Both the position numbers and the translations under genes were made by a program. 64,000 bases of DNA from Marinicella sp. Its GTDB lineage: Bacteria; Pseudomonadota; Gammaproteobacteria; Xanthomonadales; Marinicellaceae. Shown here piece after piece: positions 8,412 to 38,805 of this stretch (its first letter is position 1; every line of letters starts with the position of its first letter). Under the pieces are notes generated by a model, which saw nothing but the letters and a program-made list of their open reading frames with translations, was not told the origin of the DNA and did not search any database. The DNA is taken from assembly GCA_965230295.1 (NCBI GenBank), contig OZ246001.1, positions 3,296,001 through 3,360,000 on the forward strand. The letters run 5' to 3'.

Positions 8412-10439
8412 TTATGGACTGTTGCCATCAAATCCGTCTTTAAAGATGGGGCATTCTGGTGGGGTATTGGGTTCTGACACCAAAATGACATCATCTATGG
8501 CTGCTTCAATGATGCTGCCATTGTTGGTATCTTGGGCAATGAAACGGATTTGAAATTGATTGGTGTTGTTGACAAAGTTTGCCACACGAAATTCTTGATA
8601 AACCCATTCTGCAGCTACACCATTGCTGATGGTTTCTACGGTGGTCCAGTTGCCACCTGCATTGTCAGAGACCTGAACCACGAACGTATCATCGCTGTTG
8701 CCGTTATCACCCCACCAGCGCCAGTATGATATGTGTGCTTCGGTACTGCTGGCATCTAAGATGGGTGAAACCAAACGGGTCGCACCGCCATCAACGTCAG
8801 TATTACCGGCAGCATTACCCGTGACATAAGCTGACCCTGATGAATCTGCATCCCATGGTGGGTCTTGTCTGCGACCAAAACCAGCAGGTACGCCTCGTTC
8901 CCAGGATCCGGCGGTTAAACTGGGATCATCATCAACAGTCCATCCCTGATCAGTCTCGAAGGTGTCTCTGAATGTGTCATTGAATGAATTACCCACTCGC
9001 CTGATGAAACGCCTGTTGGCAGAGTTATCTGCGGTAAACGGGTGATGAACAATGCCACCACTGAGGGTTTCCACATCGATTTTAAAGGTCACTTCACTGG
9101 CACAGGCTGAAGCAGGTAGAGTGGCTTCATAGGTGGCTGCTGCTACTGGTGATAACGGAATGGTTACATCACCATTGCCATAATCATAAATCAAGCTGGC
9201 TGAGTTGAAACTGGCCGGTAAGTTATCACGATCAAGGATGTCAACCTGGAAGCTGGTTCCTGACGTAGGTATATCCTGTGCAATGGGTGTAACTTGTTCG
9301 ATCCGAATCTGAGGTGGACCATTGAGGCAAATGCCAATGGGGTTAGCCAGGGCATTGAGTAATCCTGTATTGGCCAATGAAGTGCCATTATTGGCACCGC
9401 CACCAGCAGAACAGCCCGCATTGGTGTGAATACCAATCGCAGTTCCTGTTCCTTCAACTTCGACTGCAGACCCTGAATTACCACCTGTGGTATCAACCGT
9501 GTATTGTAAAGAGGTACCCGATACACCTGTCAGCTCACCGGTGTGTGTGGTTTGTGTTTGGCTCCAGTCTTGCGGAGTCCCTTGGGTACCATCGATCGTG
9601 CCATAGCCGGTGATCCGTATGGTCTCTCCTCCCGGAGTAGCAGGAGGGGCGGCTAAAATAAAGTTGTTGCCTTGCGCTTCAAAAGGTGTCAATCGGGTTT
9701 GGCTGTTGGGAAATGCACCAAAATAAGCCCAGTCATTACCAATACCAGTTAAATCCCATTGCACCGAGCTGAAATCAATGGGGTATTGATTATCTGGAGA
9801 TGCGTGGTTGGTGGATCCATTGGGGTTAGACAAAGGCACATCAAACTCAACCACACTGGCAGCCGCATCGAGGTTACCTTGGGCGTCTTCTACGCAGTGT
9901 CCGGCAGTCAGAAAGCAGCCCTGAACATCGTCAATCAGCCAAGCTGTACACCCAATAGGCATGATGCGAGCCGTCCTTGCATCTGACGCCAGTGTGCGAT
10001 CATCATCAGCACCACAGATTGAACGTGAGTTATCAGTGGGCGGGCTTCCCACTTCACCCACACTGATTTCATCGATTCTGATCCTGGCTGTGTTGCCTGG
10101 ATCACTCAGTAACTCAATTTTGACTGCATCACCGTTGAAATAGGCACTGGTGTTGCGCCACTCTTGTAAGGTTTCGGCATCATGGGTTTGAACAGCGCCA
10201 TCCAACAATGAGGTGATCCTTATGGAAGAAGTTTGACCTAAAACTGCCGTTGAAAAATGTAAGCGAATCCAAGTGGCACCGTCTACTTTAATCTCCTCAT
10301 CAAAAATAACTGCATGTTCTGTACCGAAGTTTTTGACTACCCCAGAGTCCACTTCAATGTCCACCAATCTTGAGGGCAATGGGTTCTTAGCGAATACGCT
10401 TGATGACACCATCAAACAGGTCAAAATGATCAATTTCAT
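8412..10439 (-). CDS. Secreted trypsin-like (S1) serine protease with C-terminal jelly-roll (MAM-like) domain and IFKDGFD tail
   Basis: Signal peptide, LTAGHC, NDWA, GGNSGS catalytic motifs; C-terminus ...CPIFKDGFDGNSP. Confidence 0.85.
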   Translation of the reverse strand: MKLIILTCLMVSSSVFAKNPLPSRLVDIEVDSGVVKNFGTEHAVIFDEEIKVDGATWIRLHFSTAVLGQTSSIRITSLLDGAVQTHDAETLQEWRNTSAYFNGDAVKIELLSDPGNTARIRIDEISVGEVGSPPTDNSRSICGADDDRTLASDARTARIMPIGCTAWLIDDVQGCFLTAGHCVEDAQGNLDAAASVVEFDVPLSNPNGSTNHASPDNQYPIDFSSVQWDLTGIGNDWAYFGAFPNSQTRLTPFEAQGNNFILAAPPATPGGETIRITGYGTIDGTQGTPQDWSQTQTTHTGELTGVSGTSLQYTVDTTGGNSGSAVEVEGTGTAIGIHTNAGCSAGGGANNGTSLANTGLLNALANPIGICLNGPPQIRIEQVTPIAQDIPTSGTSFQVDILDRDNLPASFNSASLIYDYGNGDVTIPLSPVAAATYEATLPASACASEVTFKIDVETLSGGIVHHPFTADNSANRRFIRRVGNSFNDTFRDTFETDQGWTVDDDPSLTAGSWERGVPAGFGRRQDPPWDADSSGSAYVTGNAAGNTDVDGGATRLVSPILDASSTEAHISYWRWWGDNGNSDDTFVVQVSDNAGGNWTTVETISNGVAAEWVYQEFRVANFVNNTNQFQIRFIAQDTNNGSIIEAAIDDVILVSEPNTPPECPIFKDGFDGNSP

Positions 10440-10604
10440 TGGCTTATTCCTCTTTAACTGTTGTTATATTTTTGTATCAGCAAGACATCCTACATCAATC
10501 TGGCTACATTCCCAATTAATAATCATCTTCTGAATAAAAATAACACTGATCTATTACAAATGAACTTGTAGTGACTGATACTTAATCGATGTTTGATGTG
10601 ATCA

Positions 10605-11138
10605 GGAAAGCTGCTGAGCAGCTTGACCCGCCGAGCCGGTTAGGCAAATCATGCAATCATGGCGATTTTGCAAAGCAAAGAAGCCTTGATGTAATGATTG
10701 ATTAGCCGTGAGCTTTTGTTATAGCGGCCGCTATCACTCCTAGCTATCGCGGCAGACCTACATCCATGTAGTCACCTCTGATACCGGCATCCTGCCTCCT
10801 CAGAGGACTTACTTCCATGTAAGCCAATCAGAGGCGAAGAGAATAGCCAATGAACATGTGGCGATTTGACGAAGTCAAGAAGCCTTATGTGAATGGCGTT
10901 ATAGCACAGGCAATGAAAGTTGGGCGGTTTTATCGAAGATAAAGAAGCCCGATTTGAATGCCGCAGTGCGTGCGAGGTAGCAAGTCATGTTCGCCGTGGT
11001 CGTTTTCACTTTTGTCTGGAACAGACATGCAGTGCGAAGCAACTGCTCAGACAATAGTCTGTAAAGGTCGGTTTATTTGCGCAGCAAATATGAAGACCTG
11101 TCAGACCATGAACCAGAATGAAGACCCAAGAACATTCC
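10605..11138. repeat. Modular branched-hairpin non-coding repeat, copy 1 (MITE/REPIN-like; 534 bp)
   Basis: Near-identical to 38366-38784 apart from a 199-bp extra segment and VNTR count; ends GGAA...TTCC; many hairpins. Confidence 0.9.
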
Positions 11139-11266
11139 TTGTATCAATGGGTGTAGTCATATGACCACCAACTTCACAATATCGCAATCTGCTTATGGCT
11201 TATACTATGCGACTGCGTGTGCTGAAAAGCAAAAATAAAAACAATCAAATAGTGGGTGATATTTTT

Positions 11267-11893
11267 ATGAAAACTGCTTTAGAAATTTTTCGAATCCATC
11301 ATGAATCCATCAAAAGGCTGATCAGAGCCAATGATGTGTATGACCTCATTAAAATGTATGCTCAGAGGAAAGACGACATTCTTTTGGATTTGGCCATAAA
11401 TGTGGTCAACAGTGAAGGGATCAGTTCAATCACAGAATCAAAAGACATCTATGGGGCTGATGATGAAATCAGCGAAGTCGAAGAGGGTCAATACTTGGCC
11501 TATGCCTGTGAACAAAGCATCCAATCGACTTATACGGCATTTGAAAAATACTTGGTGAACAAATATTGGGAGTTATTCAGGACCAAAGGATTGGGGTCTT
11601 ACAGTTCTGATGCCAAGCGGTTTATGGGTCTTTCTTCAATTGCCGATATTTATCACAGTAAACTCAACATTGATTTAAAGGCCTTCAGCGATCAACAAAT
11701 TGAGCTGAATGAAGATGATTGGTTTTTTGCAGAAACACCCTGGCATGCCATTGAAATTCTGCAACAGGCAAAAAATGAAATTGCCCATGAAGGCCAGTCA
11801 AGCCGATATCAAATTACTCAGGTGGAGGATGCGTTTTTTGTTCATGTTTTCATAGGGCAGTGGGTCCATGCATTCGATGCTGCGCATACGTAA
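11267..11893 (+). CDS. Hypothetical protein, HEPN-like fold
   Basis: All-helical; TAFEKYL helix and late KNEIAH resembling the HEPN R-x4-H motif with R->K; probable start MKTALE at 11267. Confidence 0.55.
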   Translation: MKTALEIFRIHHESIKRLIRANDVYDLIKMYAQRKDDILLDLAINVVNSEGISSITESKDIYGADDEISEVEEGQYLAYACEQSIQSTYTAFEKYLVNKYWELFRTKGLGSYSSDAKRFMGLSSIADIYHSKLNIDLKAFSDQQIELNEDDWFFAETPWHAIEILQQAKNEIAHEGQSSRYQITQVEDAFFVHVFIGQWVHAFDAAHT

Positions 11894-12098
11894 AAAATAA
11901 GTGACTCAGGGTGTCATATTTGGCTTCTCAGGACGCCTTTATGATTAAATAAATATTTGTTTCAGTGATTCTGAGTTCAAAATAGCCACCTGAATTAAGT
12001 TTGCTGTTTAAAGTTCAGGTATTCCAACTATAATACCCACCTAATTCCGGGCCATGTGCTCAGAGCTTACCCCAACCTAAATATTGATGAGAGATTAT

Positions 12099-37342: not shown

Positions 37343-37374
37343 AATGGATCCCCGGGTCAAGCCCGAGGATGACG
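37343..37374 (-). repeat. CGTC-type palindromic repeat (REP-like), right, inverted
   Basis: AATGGATCCCCGGGTCAAGCCCGAGGATGACG is the reverse complement of 36889-36920. Confidence 0.9.
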
Positions 37375-37628
37375 ACTGTGTGTTTTAATAAGGTATATCC
37401 AAGGGCATGACTTGCTACCTCGAACTTACATTTTTTGGCTCAGCATGGCTTCGCAAATCGAGTCCGCAAGTCTAACTGTCCGACAGTTCTCCGTCATAAT
37501 TACTACAAAGATTATTTTTCTGCAAAGTAGCTGTTTTTTGAATAATAAATGATGTATTTATTTAGATTATGAAACTAAGTTAACAAGCGCTTTGTCAAAA
37601 TCAAATTCATTTCCAAATTAAGTACAAC

Positions 37629-38365: not shown

Positions 38366-38784
38366 GGAAAGCTGCTGAGCAGCTTGACCCGCCGAGCCGG
38401 TTGGGCAAATCATGCAATCATGGCGGTTTTGCAAAGCAAAGAAGCCTTATGTGAATGGCGTTATAGCACAGGCAATGAAAGTTGGGCGGTTTTATCGAAG
38501 ATAAAGAAGCCCGATTTGAATGCCGCAGTGCGTGCGAGGTAGCAAGTTATGTTCGCCGTGGTCGTTTTCACTTTTGTCTGGAACAGACATGCAGTGCGAA
38601 GCAACTGCTCAGACAATAGTCTGTAAAGGTCGGTTTATTTGCGCAGCAAATATGAAGACCTGTCAGACCATGAACCAGAATGAAGACCTGTCAGACCATG
38701 AACCAGAATGAAGACCTGTCAGACCATGAACCAGAATGAAGACCTGTCAGACCATGAACCAGAATGAAGACCCAAGAACATTCC
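38366..38784. repeat. Modular branched-hairpin non-coding repeat, copy 2 (419 bp)
   Basis: Matches 10605-11138 with three substitutions, a 199-bp deletion and extra tandem units. Confidence 0.9.
38653..38772. repeat. Tandem repeat, 4 x 28 bp plus partial unit
   Basis: TGAAGACCTGTCAGACCATGAACCAGAA x4 followed by TGAAGACC; only one unit in copy 1. Confidence 0.95.
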
Positions 38785-38805
38785 TTTTGAATAGAGTCTG
38801 GATGT

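What the first reader, a model, noticed from the sequence alone, without database searches (positions are those of the whole stretch)
10605..11138. Modular branched-hairpin non-coding element, repeated in the window, with ssDNA-type GNA caps
Seen: a 534-bp intergenic element recurs at 38366-38784, and both copies have the same sharp ends (GGAAAGCTGCTG...AGAACATTCC). It is built from a repeated arm: stem, internal loop, GGC stem, GRT/GAA internal loop, capped stem. The capped stems differ in sequence but keep their pairing: TTTGC-AAA-GCAAA (arm 10647-10699), TTGAC-GAA-GTCAA (10846-10897), TTTATC-GAA-GATAAA (10904-10969) and TATTTGC-GCA-GCAAATA (11066-11098). There is also a multi-hairpin junction with TGTCTG-GAA-CAGACA, GC-GAA-GC and CAGAC/GTCTG (10997-11108). 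Known: C-GNA-G triloops are exceptionally stable in single-stranded DNA, and structured ssDNA is the substrate of HUH/Y1 enzymes such as RAYT and IS200/605. Inference: this is selected secondary structure in a non-autonomous mobile element or a large structured ncRNA/ssDNA family. I cannot assign it to a named family, and its partner enzyme is not in the window.
Basis: partly seen in the sequence, partly recalled or inferred. Interest (0 to 1): 0.8.

Follow-up and report, generated by a model that had tools for sequence, protein, structure and literature searches.

The report
Folded modular mobile DNA repeat family
This is one copy of a gene-less, hairpin-rich DNA repeat found more than a hundred times in a marine bacterium, which seems to move as a folded single strand although no known transposase gene accounts for it.

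Summary
The window carries two full copies (10605-11140 and 38366-38786; the true right end includes two more T) and a third, shortened copy (37390-37492, minus strand).

- **Family size:** the 4.0-Mb genome has 68 copies with both ends, 125 right ends and 84 covariance-model hits. The family occurs in 18 of 23 genomes of the genus (probably Marinicella) and in 0 of 17 outside it.
- **Structure:** the basic unit is a 149-nt core. Across 62 sequences from 11 genomes, 91% of cells pair and 28 of 49 pairs carry changes on both sides. Optional hairpin arms sit at fixed sites.
- **Mobility:** contigs of a roughly 99.5%-identical relative lack two copies exactly, with no target duplication or footprint. 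C lies four bases before both cut sites.
- **Context:** copies are intergenic. Their orientation follows replication (79 of 122), not neighbouring genes.
- **DNA or RNA:** DNA-type GNA mini-hairpins lie almost only on one strand, and RNA-type loops are nearly absent.
- **Enzyme:** Y1/RAYT, IS91, IS110, TnpB and reverse transcriptase are absent or do not co-occur. No Rfam family matches.

Best reading: a non-autonomous element moved as folded single-stranded DNA by an unidentified enzyme. It is a new variant of a known kind.

The parts
10605..11140 (+). Copy 1, full composite element (536 nt including the terminal TT): core plus arm 1, a middle module, arms 2 and 3, and a 3' junction module
   Evidence: The right end is extended by TT on the evidence. 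Module limits were worked out by hand from the rulers.
10605..10641 (+). Left end of the core: GGA (pairs with TCC at the right end), hairpin H1 (7-bp stem, TGA loop, 10608-10624) and the 5' strand of long-range helix P2
   Evidence: Five of the 7 H1 pairs and 11 of the 17 P2/P3 pairs change on both sides. This stretch is shared by 69 left ends in the genome.
10642..10707 (+). Arm 1: long imperfect hairpin that replaces the tip of core helix P3. Cap TTTGC-AAA-GCAAA at 10667-10679, with the GA/GAA internal loop next to a GGC/GCC stem
   Evidence: Fold (pairs 10647-10699). The same arm occurs in other copies.
10708..10825 (+). Middle module: GC-rich palindrome and three hairpins whose loops are pyrimidine-rich on the top strand. 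Its mini-hairpin motifs lie on the bottom strand, as if it were a module in inverted orientation
   Evidence: GCGNNAGC occurs 0 times on the top strand and 81 times on the bottom strand in the 62 own copies. Related units occur on their own, partly in tandem, in genomes that lack the core (G018, G003).
10826..10841 (+). Core segment: 3' strand of P3 and part of the 3' strand of P2
   Evidence: Alignment of copy 1 with the 147-nt copies; pairs.
10842..10902 (+). Arm 2, inserted within helix P2; cap TTGAC-GAA-GTCAA
   Evidence: The same arm is present in the 211-nt and 298-nt copies at the same site.
10903..10968 (+). Arm 3; cap TTTATC-GAA-GATAAA
10969..11023 (+). Core 3' domain, 5' half: the strand that pairs with the right end (ATGTTC with GAACAT) and the start of the terminal hairpin
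   Evidence: Five of the 6 pairs of helix 86-91/143-148 change on both sides.
11024..11117 (+). 3' junction module that replaces the 3' strand of the terminal hairpin. It holds hairpins G-GAA-C, GC-GAA-GC, CAGAC-AATA-GTCTG and C-GCA-G, and one 28-nt unit (11090-11117)
   Evidence: The module is present in the 234-nt class (6 copies).
11118..11140 (+). Right end, ending CCTT. It is the most widely shared part of the family
   Evidence: 125 right ends in the genome. C four bases before the end is invariant in 62 of 62 aligned sequences.
38366..38786 (+). Copy 2 (421 nt including TT). It has the same ends, one chimeric arm (start of arm 1 joined to the end of arm 2), arm 3, the core 3' domain and the junction module
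38652..38772 (+). Tandem array of the 28-nt unit, 4.3 copies and 100% matches (1 copy in copy 1)
37390..37492 (-). Copy 3: diverged sub-family core with the terminal hairpin deleted (103 nt), intergenic
   Evidence: Covariance model R1, 31.8 bits, E about 2e-5.

Best explanation
The element is a member of a genus-wide family of non-autonomous mobile DNA.

Anatomy. The unit is a 149-nt core running from GGA to CCTT. As a single strand it folds into a closed, three-part structure:
- hairpin H1;
- a long-range helix P2 that encloses a small hairpin P3;
- a 3' domain in which the right end pairs with a stretch about 55 nt upstream.

Hairpin arms built on one plan (stem, GGC, G-R/GAA internal loop, capped stem) are added at fixed places.

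Proposed mechanism. A trans-acting, probably single-copy, host-encoded enzyme recognises the folded top strand. It cuts four bases after a C at both borders (flank C-N-N-N, then the element; element ...C-C-T-T, then the flank). The element leaves and enters without target duplication or footprint, preferring intergenic C-W-W-W^W-W-T sites.

What is shown: the fold, the borders, recent presence/absence, the target preference, the strand bias of the hairpin motifs and the orientation bias.

What is inferred: the single-stranded intermediate, the cutting rule as an enzyme property and the existence of the enzyme. Its identity is unknown.
For: **Family and fold**
- The own genome has 104 merged BLAST loci, 62 to 68 copies with both ends, 125 right ends and 84 model hits.
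- With the 534-nt query, 18 of 23 genomes of the genus match and 0 of 17 outside it.
- On 62 sequences (59 distinct) from 11 genomes, 91.3% of cells pair, against 33-41% when the partners are slid. 28 of 49 pairs change on both sides, against 6-10 when slid. 0 of 500 shuffles reach the covariation score.

**Mobility and borders**
- On a 20-kb stretch holding three copies, an 18,373-nt contig of run X1 skips one element plus five bases and has three other letters there. It shows 0 differences over 3,329 nt on one side and 42 over about 8.6 kb on the other. X2 shows the same joint.
- A second X1 contig joins across exactly 149 nt, which is the element plus TT.
- No target duplication: the last and first 4 flank bases agree in 0 of 62 copies.
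- C at -4 of the left flank occurs in 46 of 61 own copies and 44 of 59 copies in relatives. T at +3 occurs in 44 of 61 and 35 of 59.
- C at -4 from the right end is invariant in 62 of 62 sequences.

**DNA, one strand**
- In the 62 own copies, GNA triloops on stems of 4 bp or more number 112 on the top strand and 10 on the bottom.
- GCGNAGC occurs 77 times on top and 0 on the bottom. CGNAG occurs 226 times on top and 3 on the bottom.
- Triloop hairpins number 258 and tetraloop hairpins 127. Of the tetraloops, 0 are GNRA and 1 is UNCG-type.
- Passages of PMC13037366 state that GCGNAGC/GCGNNAGC mini-hairpins are far more stable as DNA than as RNA.

**Context**
- 3 of 122 right ends lie inside predicted genes, although 87.5% of the genome is called coding.
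- Orientation against flanking genes is even: 19, 16, 15 and 12 in the four classes, and 63 against 59.
- Orientation against replication is biased: 46 of 62 and 79 of 122, binomial p 0.0014. dnaA lies at 1.72 Mb, at the minimum of cumulative GC skew.
- No promoter or terminator excess.
Against: **No enzyme**
- The own genome has one Y1 gene, a RAYT-like gene flanked by a different hairpin family.
- Y1 genes were not found in G019, G021 (99% complete) or G016, which are rich in the element. They are present in element-free G017, G010 and G012.
- No IS91 Y2, IS110, TnpB, reverse transcriptase or DDE_Tnp_1 gene is in the own genome.
- No protein family has more than two close paralogs.

[quoted passage not shown] In that paradigm the active strand lies on the lagging-strand template (abstract of PMC5027513).

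**The strand evidence from pairing is mixed**
- G-T against A-C cells number 257 against 26 over all pairs, but the structure was derived from the top strand.
- Among covarying pairs, my tally from the table gives 25 against 17: 12 against 0 in the 3' domain and 13 against 17 in the 5' domain.
- Both strands fold equally well as DNA (z -4.2 each).

**Other limits**
- The empty alleles come from assembled contigs, not reads. Insertion in one strain cannot be told from precise loss in the other.
- No RNA data could be consulted.
- Gene calls are my own crude ones.
Confidence: 0.6

Rival explanations
1. It is a family of structured non-coding RNAs. The covarying fold serves an RNA (a regulator, a scaffold or a ribozyme-like molecule), and the DNA copies are its genes, spread by some unrelated means.
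For: - The fold is multi-helix, with long-range pairs, conserved unpaired stretches and tandem G-A motifs, as in functional RNAs.
- The RNA fold of copy 1 has the best z-score, -5.7.
- G-T wobble cells in the 3' domain lie on the top strand only: 12 against 0 by my tally from the table.
Against: - No Rfam match, even at E up to 10.
- Upstream flanks are unrelated, and there is no promoter or terminator excess.
- Orientation is unrelated to neighbouring genes, and in 65-74% of copies a top-strand transcript would run head-on to replication.
- Loops are mostly 3 nt, of the DNA-stable GNA kind. Among 127 tetraloop hairpins, 0 are GNRA and 1 is UNCG-type.
- A 2-bp GC stem with a GAA or GTA loop is reported to be much weaker as RNA (PMC13037366, passages).
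- An RNA function does not explain the exact borders, the absence of target duplication or the C-at-minus-4 rule.
Confidence: 0.12
2. It is a domesticated cis-acting single-strand DNA site. When exposed at the fork or during DNA uptake, the folded strand excludes SSB and recruits a host factor such as a primase, a restart protein or a site-specific ssDNA nuclease like Ssn. Its spread is secondary to that role.
For: - Orientation is tied to replication.
- The family persists across the genus with lineage-specific compensated variants.
- According to passages of PMC13037366, the mini-hairpin motifs are the kind found at single-strand initiation sites and single-strand promoters, and they bind SSB poorly.
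- Ssn GIY-YIG nucleases act on dispersed hairpin repeats in ssDNA (PMC11893778: abstract and sections 6, 7 and 10). This genome has four small GIY-YIG genes.
Against: - Seven of the 23 genus genomes gave no core match, so the element is dispensable.
- Two of three copies in one 20-kb stretch differ between strains about 99.5% alike. That is the behaviour of a mobile parasite, not of a fixed functional site.
- Three of the small GIY-YIG genes are flanked by their own, different repeats. The fourth is conserved in 21 of 23 genomes, whether or not they carry the element.
Confidence: 0.15
3. It is an unusually elaborate REP/REPIN-type element moved by the genome's RAYT (Y1 HUH) transposase, or an IS200/IS605-derived miniature element.
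For: - There is no target duplication and there are no inverted terminal repeats.
- Hairpins lie next to both ends.
- A short flank preference lies on the 5' side, and the two cut sites resemble each other.
- One RAYT-like gene is present in the genome.
Against: - The RAYT gene is flanked by another hairpin family, with about 41 copies against about 7 expected for both orientations together.
- Its orthologs occur in G023, G003 and G012 only. G003 has no core copies.
- Y1 genes were not found in the element-rich G019, G021 and G016.
- No TnpB gene and no autonomous copy with these ends were found.
- Orientation is opposite to the lagging-template rule.
Confidence: 0.06
4. It is an ordinary MITE moved as double-stranded DNA by a DDE transposase.
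For: It is short, non-coding, dispersed and intergenic, and it occurs in size classes.
Against: - The ends share only 4 complementary bases (GGAA/TTCC).
- There is no target duplication.
- The genome has no DDE_Tnp_1 match, one rve match and no multi-copy protein family.
- Covariation spans the whole element, not just the ends.
Confidence: 0.03

Closest known systems
REP/REPIN elements with single-copy RAYT (Y1 HUH) transposases (PMC3116915, PMC3337134, bioRxiv 10.1101/2021.07.10.451892; search listing and abstract starts only)
   Same: Both are gene-less hairpin repeats in tens to hundreds of copies. Both are intergenic, persist within one lineage and evolve with it, and lack a multi-copy transposase. 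This points to a single-copy trans-acting enzyme.
   Different: The unit here is a 149-nt multi-helix fold with long-range pairs and added arms, not a short palindrome or a doublet of two. The genome's RAYT-like gene is flanked by a different repeat and does not co-occur with the family.
IS200/IS605 single-strand 'peel and paste' transposition and its miniature derivatives (PMC5027513 abstract; PMC3201880 and PMC6006769, listing only)
   Same: Both lack target duplication and inverted ends. Both have hairpins next to the ends, cuts at a short distance from recognised structure and a preferred short sequence on the 5' flank. In both, orientation is linked to replication.
   Different: No Y1 or TnpB partner and no autonomous relative were found. 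The whole element is structured, not only its ends. The hairpin-rich strand lies mostly on the leading-strand template, which is the reverse of that family's rule.
Integron attC sites (PMC5371416: abstract and section 6)
   Same: Both are folded single-strand recombination substrates in which structure is conserved more than sequence. In 25 of 30 sedentary integrons the recombinogenic strand is kept on the leading-strand template, which matches the sign of the bias seen here.
   Different: attC sites sit in cassette arrays beside an integrase and carry defined core sites. This family is dispersed and without cassettes. Reading the ends showed no such core sites.
Ssn GIY-YIG single-strand nucleases with NTS/SRM hairpin repeats, and Neisseria mosaic intergenic elements (PMC11893778: abstract and sections 6, 7 and 10)
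   Same: Both involve hundreds of dispersed hairpin repeats that act as ssDNA and are tied to a small host nuclease. This genome has four such small GIY-YIG genes, and three of them are flanked by dispersed repeats.
   Different: Those repeats are single hairpins of about 30 nt with a tag sequence. The GIY-YIG genes here are flanked by other repeat families, not by this element. No transposition activity is described for Ssn in the parts I read.
Modular repeats such as pneumococcal BOX and E. coli BIME (recalled; no call)
   Same: Fixed end modules enclose a variable number of internal modules, and the elements are intergenic.
   Different: No sequence relation was looked for or seen. Those families are not known (recalled) to have a covarying long-range fold or exact excision borders.

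Membership tests
REP/REPIN-RAYT system | Unit is a short palindrome (about 20-40 nt) or an inverted doublet forming one hairpin | tested here: not met
   The core is 149 nt with five helices, including long-range pairs.
REP/REPIN-RAYT system | The cognate RAYT gene is flanked by the repeat | tested here: not met
   The RAYT-like gene (L032 1300-1863) is flanked by GACTTCAGTC-type hairpins, not by this element.
REP/REPIN-RAYT system | Repeat and RAYT co-occur across genomes | tested here: not met
   Y1 was not found in G019, G021 or G016, which have 32-42 core matches. Y1 is present in G017, G010 and G012, which have 0-1.
IS200/IS605-derived miniature element | No inverted terminal repeats and no target duplication | tested here: met
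IS200/IS605-derived miniature element | Insertion just 3' of a conserved tetra- or pentanucleotide | tested here: inconclusive
   Only C at -4 is conserved (46 of 61 own copies, 44 of 59 in relatives); -3 to -1 are A or T.
IS200/IS605-derived miniature element | Ends shared with an autonomous element that carries tnpA (Y1), with or without tnpB | tested here: not met
   No autonomous copy. The one Y1 gene is unrelated in its flanks, and there is no TnpB gene.
IS200/IS605-derived miniature element | Active strand lies on the lagging-strand template | tested here: not met
Classical MITE (DDE-mobilised) | Terminal inverted repeats and a target site duplication | tested here: not met
   The ends share 4 complementary bases. 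No duplication was seen in 62 copies or at 2 empty sites.
Any described RNA family (Rfam 15) | Match to a covariance model | tested here: not met
   0 matches at gathering score over the whole window and 0 at E up to 10 over 10550-11200.
Ssn-related motif (SRM/NTS) repeats | Tagged hairpin of about 30 nt that flanks a small GIY-YIG ssn gene | tested here: not met
   Three small GIY-YIG genes are flanked by other repeats and one by none. Only a 40-nt remnant of this element lies about 170 nt upstream of one of them.
Integron attC | Paired core sites, cassette array and an adjacent integrase | tested here: not met
   Copies are dispersed singly between ordinary genes. Reading the ends showed no such core sites. 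No integron integrase model was run.

The most novel reading that the evidence does not exclude
This may be a new class of single-strand DNA transposon. The whole 149-nt body, not just its ends, is the recognition structure, and it is moved by an enzyme family not yet known as a transposase. Candidates are one of the small Ssn-like GIY-YIG nucleases working with host ligation, or an unannotated protein. The enzyme would cut four bases after a C at both borders. The orientation bias would then reflect either insertion on, or survival on, the leading-strand template.
Probability: 0.3. Interest if true: 0.85.

Novelty: new variant of a known kind. Interest (0 to 1): 0.68.

Why it matters
How short hairpin repeats spread in bacterial genomes is known for only a few systems, such as REP with RAYT and IS200/IS605 derivatives.

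This family has several features that make it a clean test case:
- more than 100 copies in a genome that is almost free of insertion sequences;
- exact borders, and evidence of recent movement between near-identical strains;
- a fold supported by many compensatory changes;
- a clear one-strand DNA signature;
- none of the enzymes known to work without target duplication.

Finding the enzyme could add a new route of single-strand DNA mobility. It could also yield a new structure-specific ssDNA enzyme. The orientation bias, opposite to the IS200/IS605 rule, bears on how folded DNA behaves at the replication fork.

Tried and rejected
- **RNA evidence:** no RNA holder was listed for window 9800-12000, so expression could not be examined.
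- **Empty sites in sister species:** flanks of copy 2 were searched across the genus. Only the downstream gene is conserved, at 70-81% identity, and synteny on the other side is lost, so no alignment was possible.
- **Paralogous empty sites:** flanks joined in a script and searched against the own genome gave 1 spanning hit of 62, which was an artefact of an adjacent remnant.
- **Autonomous copy:**
  - The single orphan left end (near 2,098,400) is a 40-nt remnant. The copy at 576,904 has a variant right end.
  - Genes lying between inverted right ends are ordinary: a BamB-like propeller and a small membrane-like ORF.
- **Viral contigs:** 0 matches to a core pattern. The 14 metagenome loci found were not analysed further.
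- **Insertion next to gene ends:** 19 of 61 copies lie within 10 nt of an ORF boundary, against 15.2 +/- 2.6 for random placement in the same spacers. This is no enrichment.
- **Link between the variable P3 loop and the three variable flank bases:** none was seen by eye on the 147-nt copies.
- **Literature:** of 134 papers with the term Marinicella, the 25 listed titles include none on repeats. A six-term search on GIY-YIG and repeats listed nothing relevant among 15.
- **Earlier findings of this scan:** nothing was found by sequence or for this genome.
- **Strict hairpin-based search for left ends**: it missed known complete copies, so its counts are not used.
Full report
**1. What is in the window**

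Copy 1 folds better than all 100 dinucleotide shuffles in each of three tests: top strand as DNA (z -4.2), bottom strand as DNA (z -4.2) and RNA (z -5.7).

A covariance model built later found a third copy at 37390-37492 on the minus strand. It belongs to a diverged sub-family and has lost its terminal hairpin.

**2. Size and spread of the family**

The window lies at 3,296,001-3,360,000 of a single 4.008-Mb contig with 44% G+C.

Counts in the own genome:
- The 534-nt query gives 82 matches.
- BLAST with both copies gives 501 pieces, which merge into 104 loci.
- Pairing of end probes gives 62 copies with both ends, 147 to 631 nt long. The commonest lengths are 147 nt (14 copies), 234 nt (6) and 631 nt (6). 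One of the 62, at 3,614,341, is doubtful.
- Looser probes give 69 left ends and 125 right ends, hence 68 pairs.
- Many of the 57 unpaired right ends belong to sub-families with other left ends. About 18 by eye are solo right ends of some 25-30 nt.
- The covariance model finds 84 matches at E up to 0.01; 150 of 1,644 candidates were scored.

An exact 30-nt match to the left end lies in a Marinicella gelatinilytica record, so the genus is probably Marinicella. The 534-nt query matches 18 of 23 other genomes of the genus and 0 of 17 genomes of other genera of the family and order. The 147-nt core matches 16 of 23 at E up to 1e-5.

**3. Anatomy**

The 147-nt copies are the core. Longer copies carry extra modules at fixed places:
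- at the tip of helix P3;
- inside helix P2;
- between the 3' domain's outer helix and its GG(T)C stem;
- in place of the 3' strand of the terminal hairpin.

Arms share one plan: an outer stem, a GGC/GCC stem, a G-R/GAA internal loop, a T-rich/A-rich stem and a 3-nt cap.

Copy 1 is made of the core, arm 1, a middle module, arms 2 and 3, and a 3' junction module. Copy 2 lacks the stretch from the middle of arm 1 to the middle of arm 2. It also has 4.3 copies of a 28-nt unit where copy 1 has one.

The middle module has its mini-hairpin motifs on the other strand. Related units stand alone in genomes that lack the core. The composite therefore looks like modules of more than one kind joined together.

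**4. The fold is supported by covariation**

I aligned 2 own cores and 60 from ten other genomes. On a structure of 49 pairs:
- 91.3% of 2,883 cells form standard pairs, against 33-41% when the 3' partners are slid by 1-3 columns.
- 28 pairs change on both sides, against 6-10 when slid.
- 0 of 500 shuffles reach the covariation score. The measure 'further pair types' is weaker, reached by 10 of 500.

By helix:

| Helix | Pairs changed on both sides | Cells paired |
|---|---|---|
| H1 | 5 of 7 | 97% |
| P2/P3 | 11 of 17 | 88% |
| Right end with the stretch about 55 nt upstream | 5 of 6 | 98% |
| Inner 3' domain | 6 of 16 | 92% |
| Terminal GGA/TCC closure | poorly supported (third pair fails in 30 of 59) | 79% |

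The sequences are related copies, so cell counts overstate the number of independent events. The same compensated variants nevertheless recur as lineage-specific types.

Within the own genome, differences among the 14 near-identical 147-nt copies cluster in loops.

**5. It moves, and the borders are exact**

I laid contigs of four coded runs on a 20-kb stretch of the genome that holds three copies.

- **First copy.** An 18,373-nt contig of X1 has 0 differences over 3,329 nt to the left and 42 over about 8.6 kb to the right. It skips the first element plus five flank bases and has three other letters there. X2 has the same joint. Read with one flank substitution, the absent unit is the element plus TT.
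- **Second case.** Another X1 contig joins across exactly 149 nt, which is a 147-nt copy plus TT.

There is no duplication and no footprint. This fits the flanks of all copies. The last and first 4 flank bases agree in 0 of 62 copies, and T follows the old end in 62 of 62 and 57 of 62.

Reconstructed target sites read C-W-W-W^W-W-T:
- C at -4 in 46 of 61 own copies and 44 of 59 in relatives;
- T at +3 in 44 of 61 and 35 of 59.

In the first case the C is present in the empty allele, so it belongs to the target. The base four before the right border is also C, invariant in 62 of 62 sequences. Both borders therefore follow 'C, three bases, cut' on the top strand. That this reflects one enzyme is my inference.

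These are assembled contigs, not reads. Gain cannot be told from exact loss.

**6. Context**

- Only 3 of 122 right ends lie inside my predicted genes, which cover 87.5% of the genome.
- Orientation is unrelated to neighbouring genes: 19, 16, 15 and 12 in the four classes, and 63 against 59 for the gene next to the right end.
- Orientation is related to replication. dnaA lies at 1.72 Mb, beside the minimum of cumulative GC skew; the maximum is at 3.84 Mb, and 61% of genes are co-oriented.
- The top strand reads against fork movement, so it is the leading-strand template, in 46 of 62 two-ended copies and 79 of 122 right ends (binomial p 0.0014). The bias is strongest in the origin-proximal half of each replichore and close to even in several terminus-proximal bins, for example 0-0.4 and 2.8-3.2 Mb.
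- Copies are not enriched next to ORF ends.
- There is no excess of promoter-like or terminator-like sites.

**7. DNA or RNA, and which strand**

In the 62 own copies:

| Feature | Top strand | Bottom strand |
|---|---|---|
| GNA triloops on stems of 4 bp or more | 112 | 10 |
| GCGNAGC | 77 | 0 |
| CGNAG | 226 | 3 |
| GCGNNAGC (middle module) | 0 | 81 |

- Triloop hairpins (258) outnumber tetraloop hairpins (127). Of the tetraloops, none is GNRA and one is UNCG-type.
- In the cross-species cores, GCGNAGC or GCGNNAGC occurs 46 times on the top strand and never on the bottom.
- A review of mini-hairpin DNA (PMC13037366, passages seen) reports three relevant points. These motifs melt far higher as DNA than as RNA. 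They occur at single-strand initiation sites and single-strand promoters. They bind SSB poorly.

Pairing data are mixed. G-T cells outnumber A-C cells 257 to 26, but the structure was derived on the top strand. Among covarying pairs, my tally gives 25 to 17, with all the asymmetry in the 3' domain.

I read the whole as a structure selected in single-stranded DNA of the top strand, with moderate confidence.

**8. The partner enzyme is missing**

In the own genome:
- one Y1 match, which is RAYT-like;
- no TnpB, reverse transcriptase, IS110, IS91 Y2 or DDE_Tnp_1 match;
- one rve match and eight tyrosine-recombinase matches;
- only nine pairs of close paralogs. The six pairs with Pfam matches are ordinary proteins and the other three have none.

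The RAYT-like gene is flanked by another hairpin family, with 41 sites against about 7 expected. Its orthologs are in G023, G003 and G012 only. Y1 genes of any kind were not found in G019 (94% complete), G021 (99%) or G016 (89%), which have 32-42 core matches. Y1 genes are present in element-free G017, G010 and G012. G019 has near-identical copies, so activity there looks recent.

**9. A lead from earlier notes of this scan**

Earlier notes pointed to small GIY-YIG nucleases and to the Ssn paper. Ssn proteins are site-specific ssDNA nucleases tied to dispersed hairpin repeats that flank their genes (PMC11893778: abstract and sections 6, 7 and 10).

- The own genome has four small GIY-YIG genes besides uvrC.
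- Three are flanked on both sides by dispersed repeats. Each has its own set of matching sites, and none is this element.
- The fourth has unique flanks. It has orthologs in 21 of 23 genomes, including element-free ones.
- A 40-nt remnant of this element lies about 170 nt upstream of one of them. I give this no weight.

The lead therefore stays open. These enzymes show that the genus has several repeat-plus-ssDNA-nuclease pairs, but none is tied to this family.

**10. Reading**

The best-supported account is a non-autonomous mobile element that is recognised and cut as folded single-stranded DNA and moves without target duplication. It is driven by an unidentified, probably single-copy, enzyme.

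- It works like REPIN/RAYT and IS200/IS605 derivatives, but it fails their membership tests.
- The sign of the orientation bias is the reverse of the IS200/IS605 rule (abstract of PMC5027513). [quoted passage not shown] This suggests that copies which fold less often are the ones that stay. That is inference.
- A functional RNA and a domesticated single-strand site remain possible. The second is not exclusive of mobility.

**11. Limits**

- Gene calls are my own simple ones.
- Model E-values are rough.
- No RNA data could be consulted.
- The supplements of the Ssn paper were not read and could list homologs from this genus.
The module limits in 'parts' were worked out by hand.

Noticed in passing
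window 37346-37376 (minus strand), next to copy 3: A tagged hairpin repeat (GTCGTCATCC...GGATCC) that closely resembles the repeat lying just downstream of the small GIY-YIG gene at G000 3,082,096-3,082,386. It looks like an Ssn-related motif.
   Followed up: partly
G000 1,617,932-1,618,222; 1,943,920-1,944,216; 3,082,096-3,082,386: Three 96-110-aa GIY-YIG genes are each flanked on both sides by dispersed repeats, each with its own set of matching sites (about 8 to 28 BLAST hits per flank). These look like Ssn/SRM-type nuclease-plus-repeat pairs. A fourth small GIY-YIG gene (840,616-840,939) has unique flanks and is conserved in 21 of 23 genus genomes.
   Followed up: partly
L032 1300-1863 (G000 1,669,261-1,669,821): A single RAYT-like Y1 gene is flanked by GACTTCAGTC-type hairpins. 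These occur 41 times in the genome, against about 7 expected for both orientations. It is a separate REP/RAYT-like system.
   Followed up: partly
G000 about 1,313,018-1,313,526: A head-to-tail array of about five diverged core-like units, each 122 nt long and each ending in a right-end-like sequence.
   Followed up: no
G000 701,206-701,372: An element of about 170 nt bounded by two right ends in inverted orientation. It is a variant with true inverted termini. The same internal module occurs in other copies, for example those ending at 759,882, 1,049,393 and 2,855,577.
   Followed up: no
G000, about 18 sites (for example right ends at 205,252, 918,538, 1,195,501, 2,100,562, 3,144,787): Solo right ends of about 25-30 nt that all start near the same internal point. 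Two of them form an 8-bp palindrome with the terminal CATTCCTT. Only one solo left end was found. The asymmetry is unexplained.
   Followed up: partly
G021:C4:87585-88418: In another species, a copy lies beside the 3' end of the ortholog of the gene downstream of window copy 2, but in the opposite orientation. This looks like an independent insertion at a similar place.
   Followed up: no
G000 577,480-577,640 and many other sites: Another dispersed repeat built of inverted CTGAGCGGAGTCGAAGCC-type halves lies just downstream of the copy at 576,904. It is the family that flanks the GIY-YIG gene at 1,617,932.
   Followed up: partly
whole genome G000: The genome is very poor in insertion sequences. 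It has no protein family with more than two close paralogs, no DDE_Tnp_1, IS110, IS91 or TnpB match, and one rve match. Yet it carries several abundant non-coding repeat families.
   Followed up: partly
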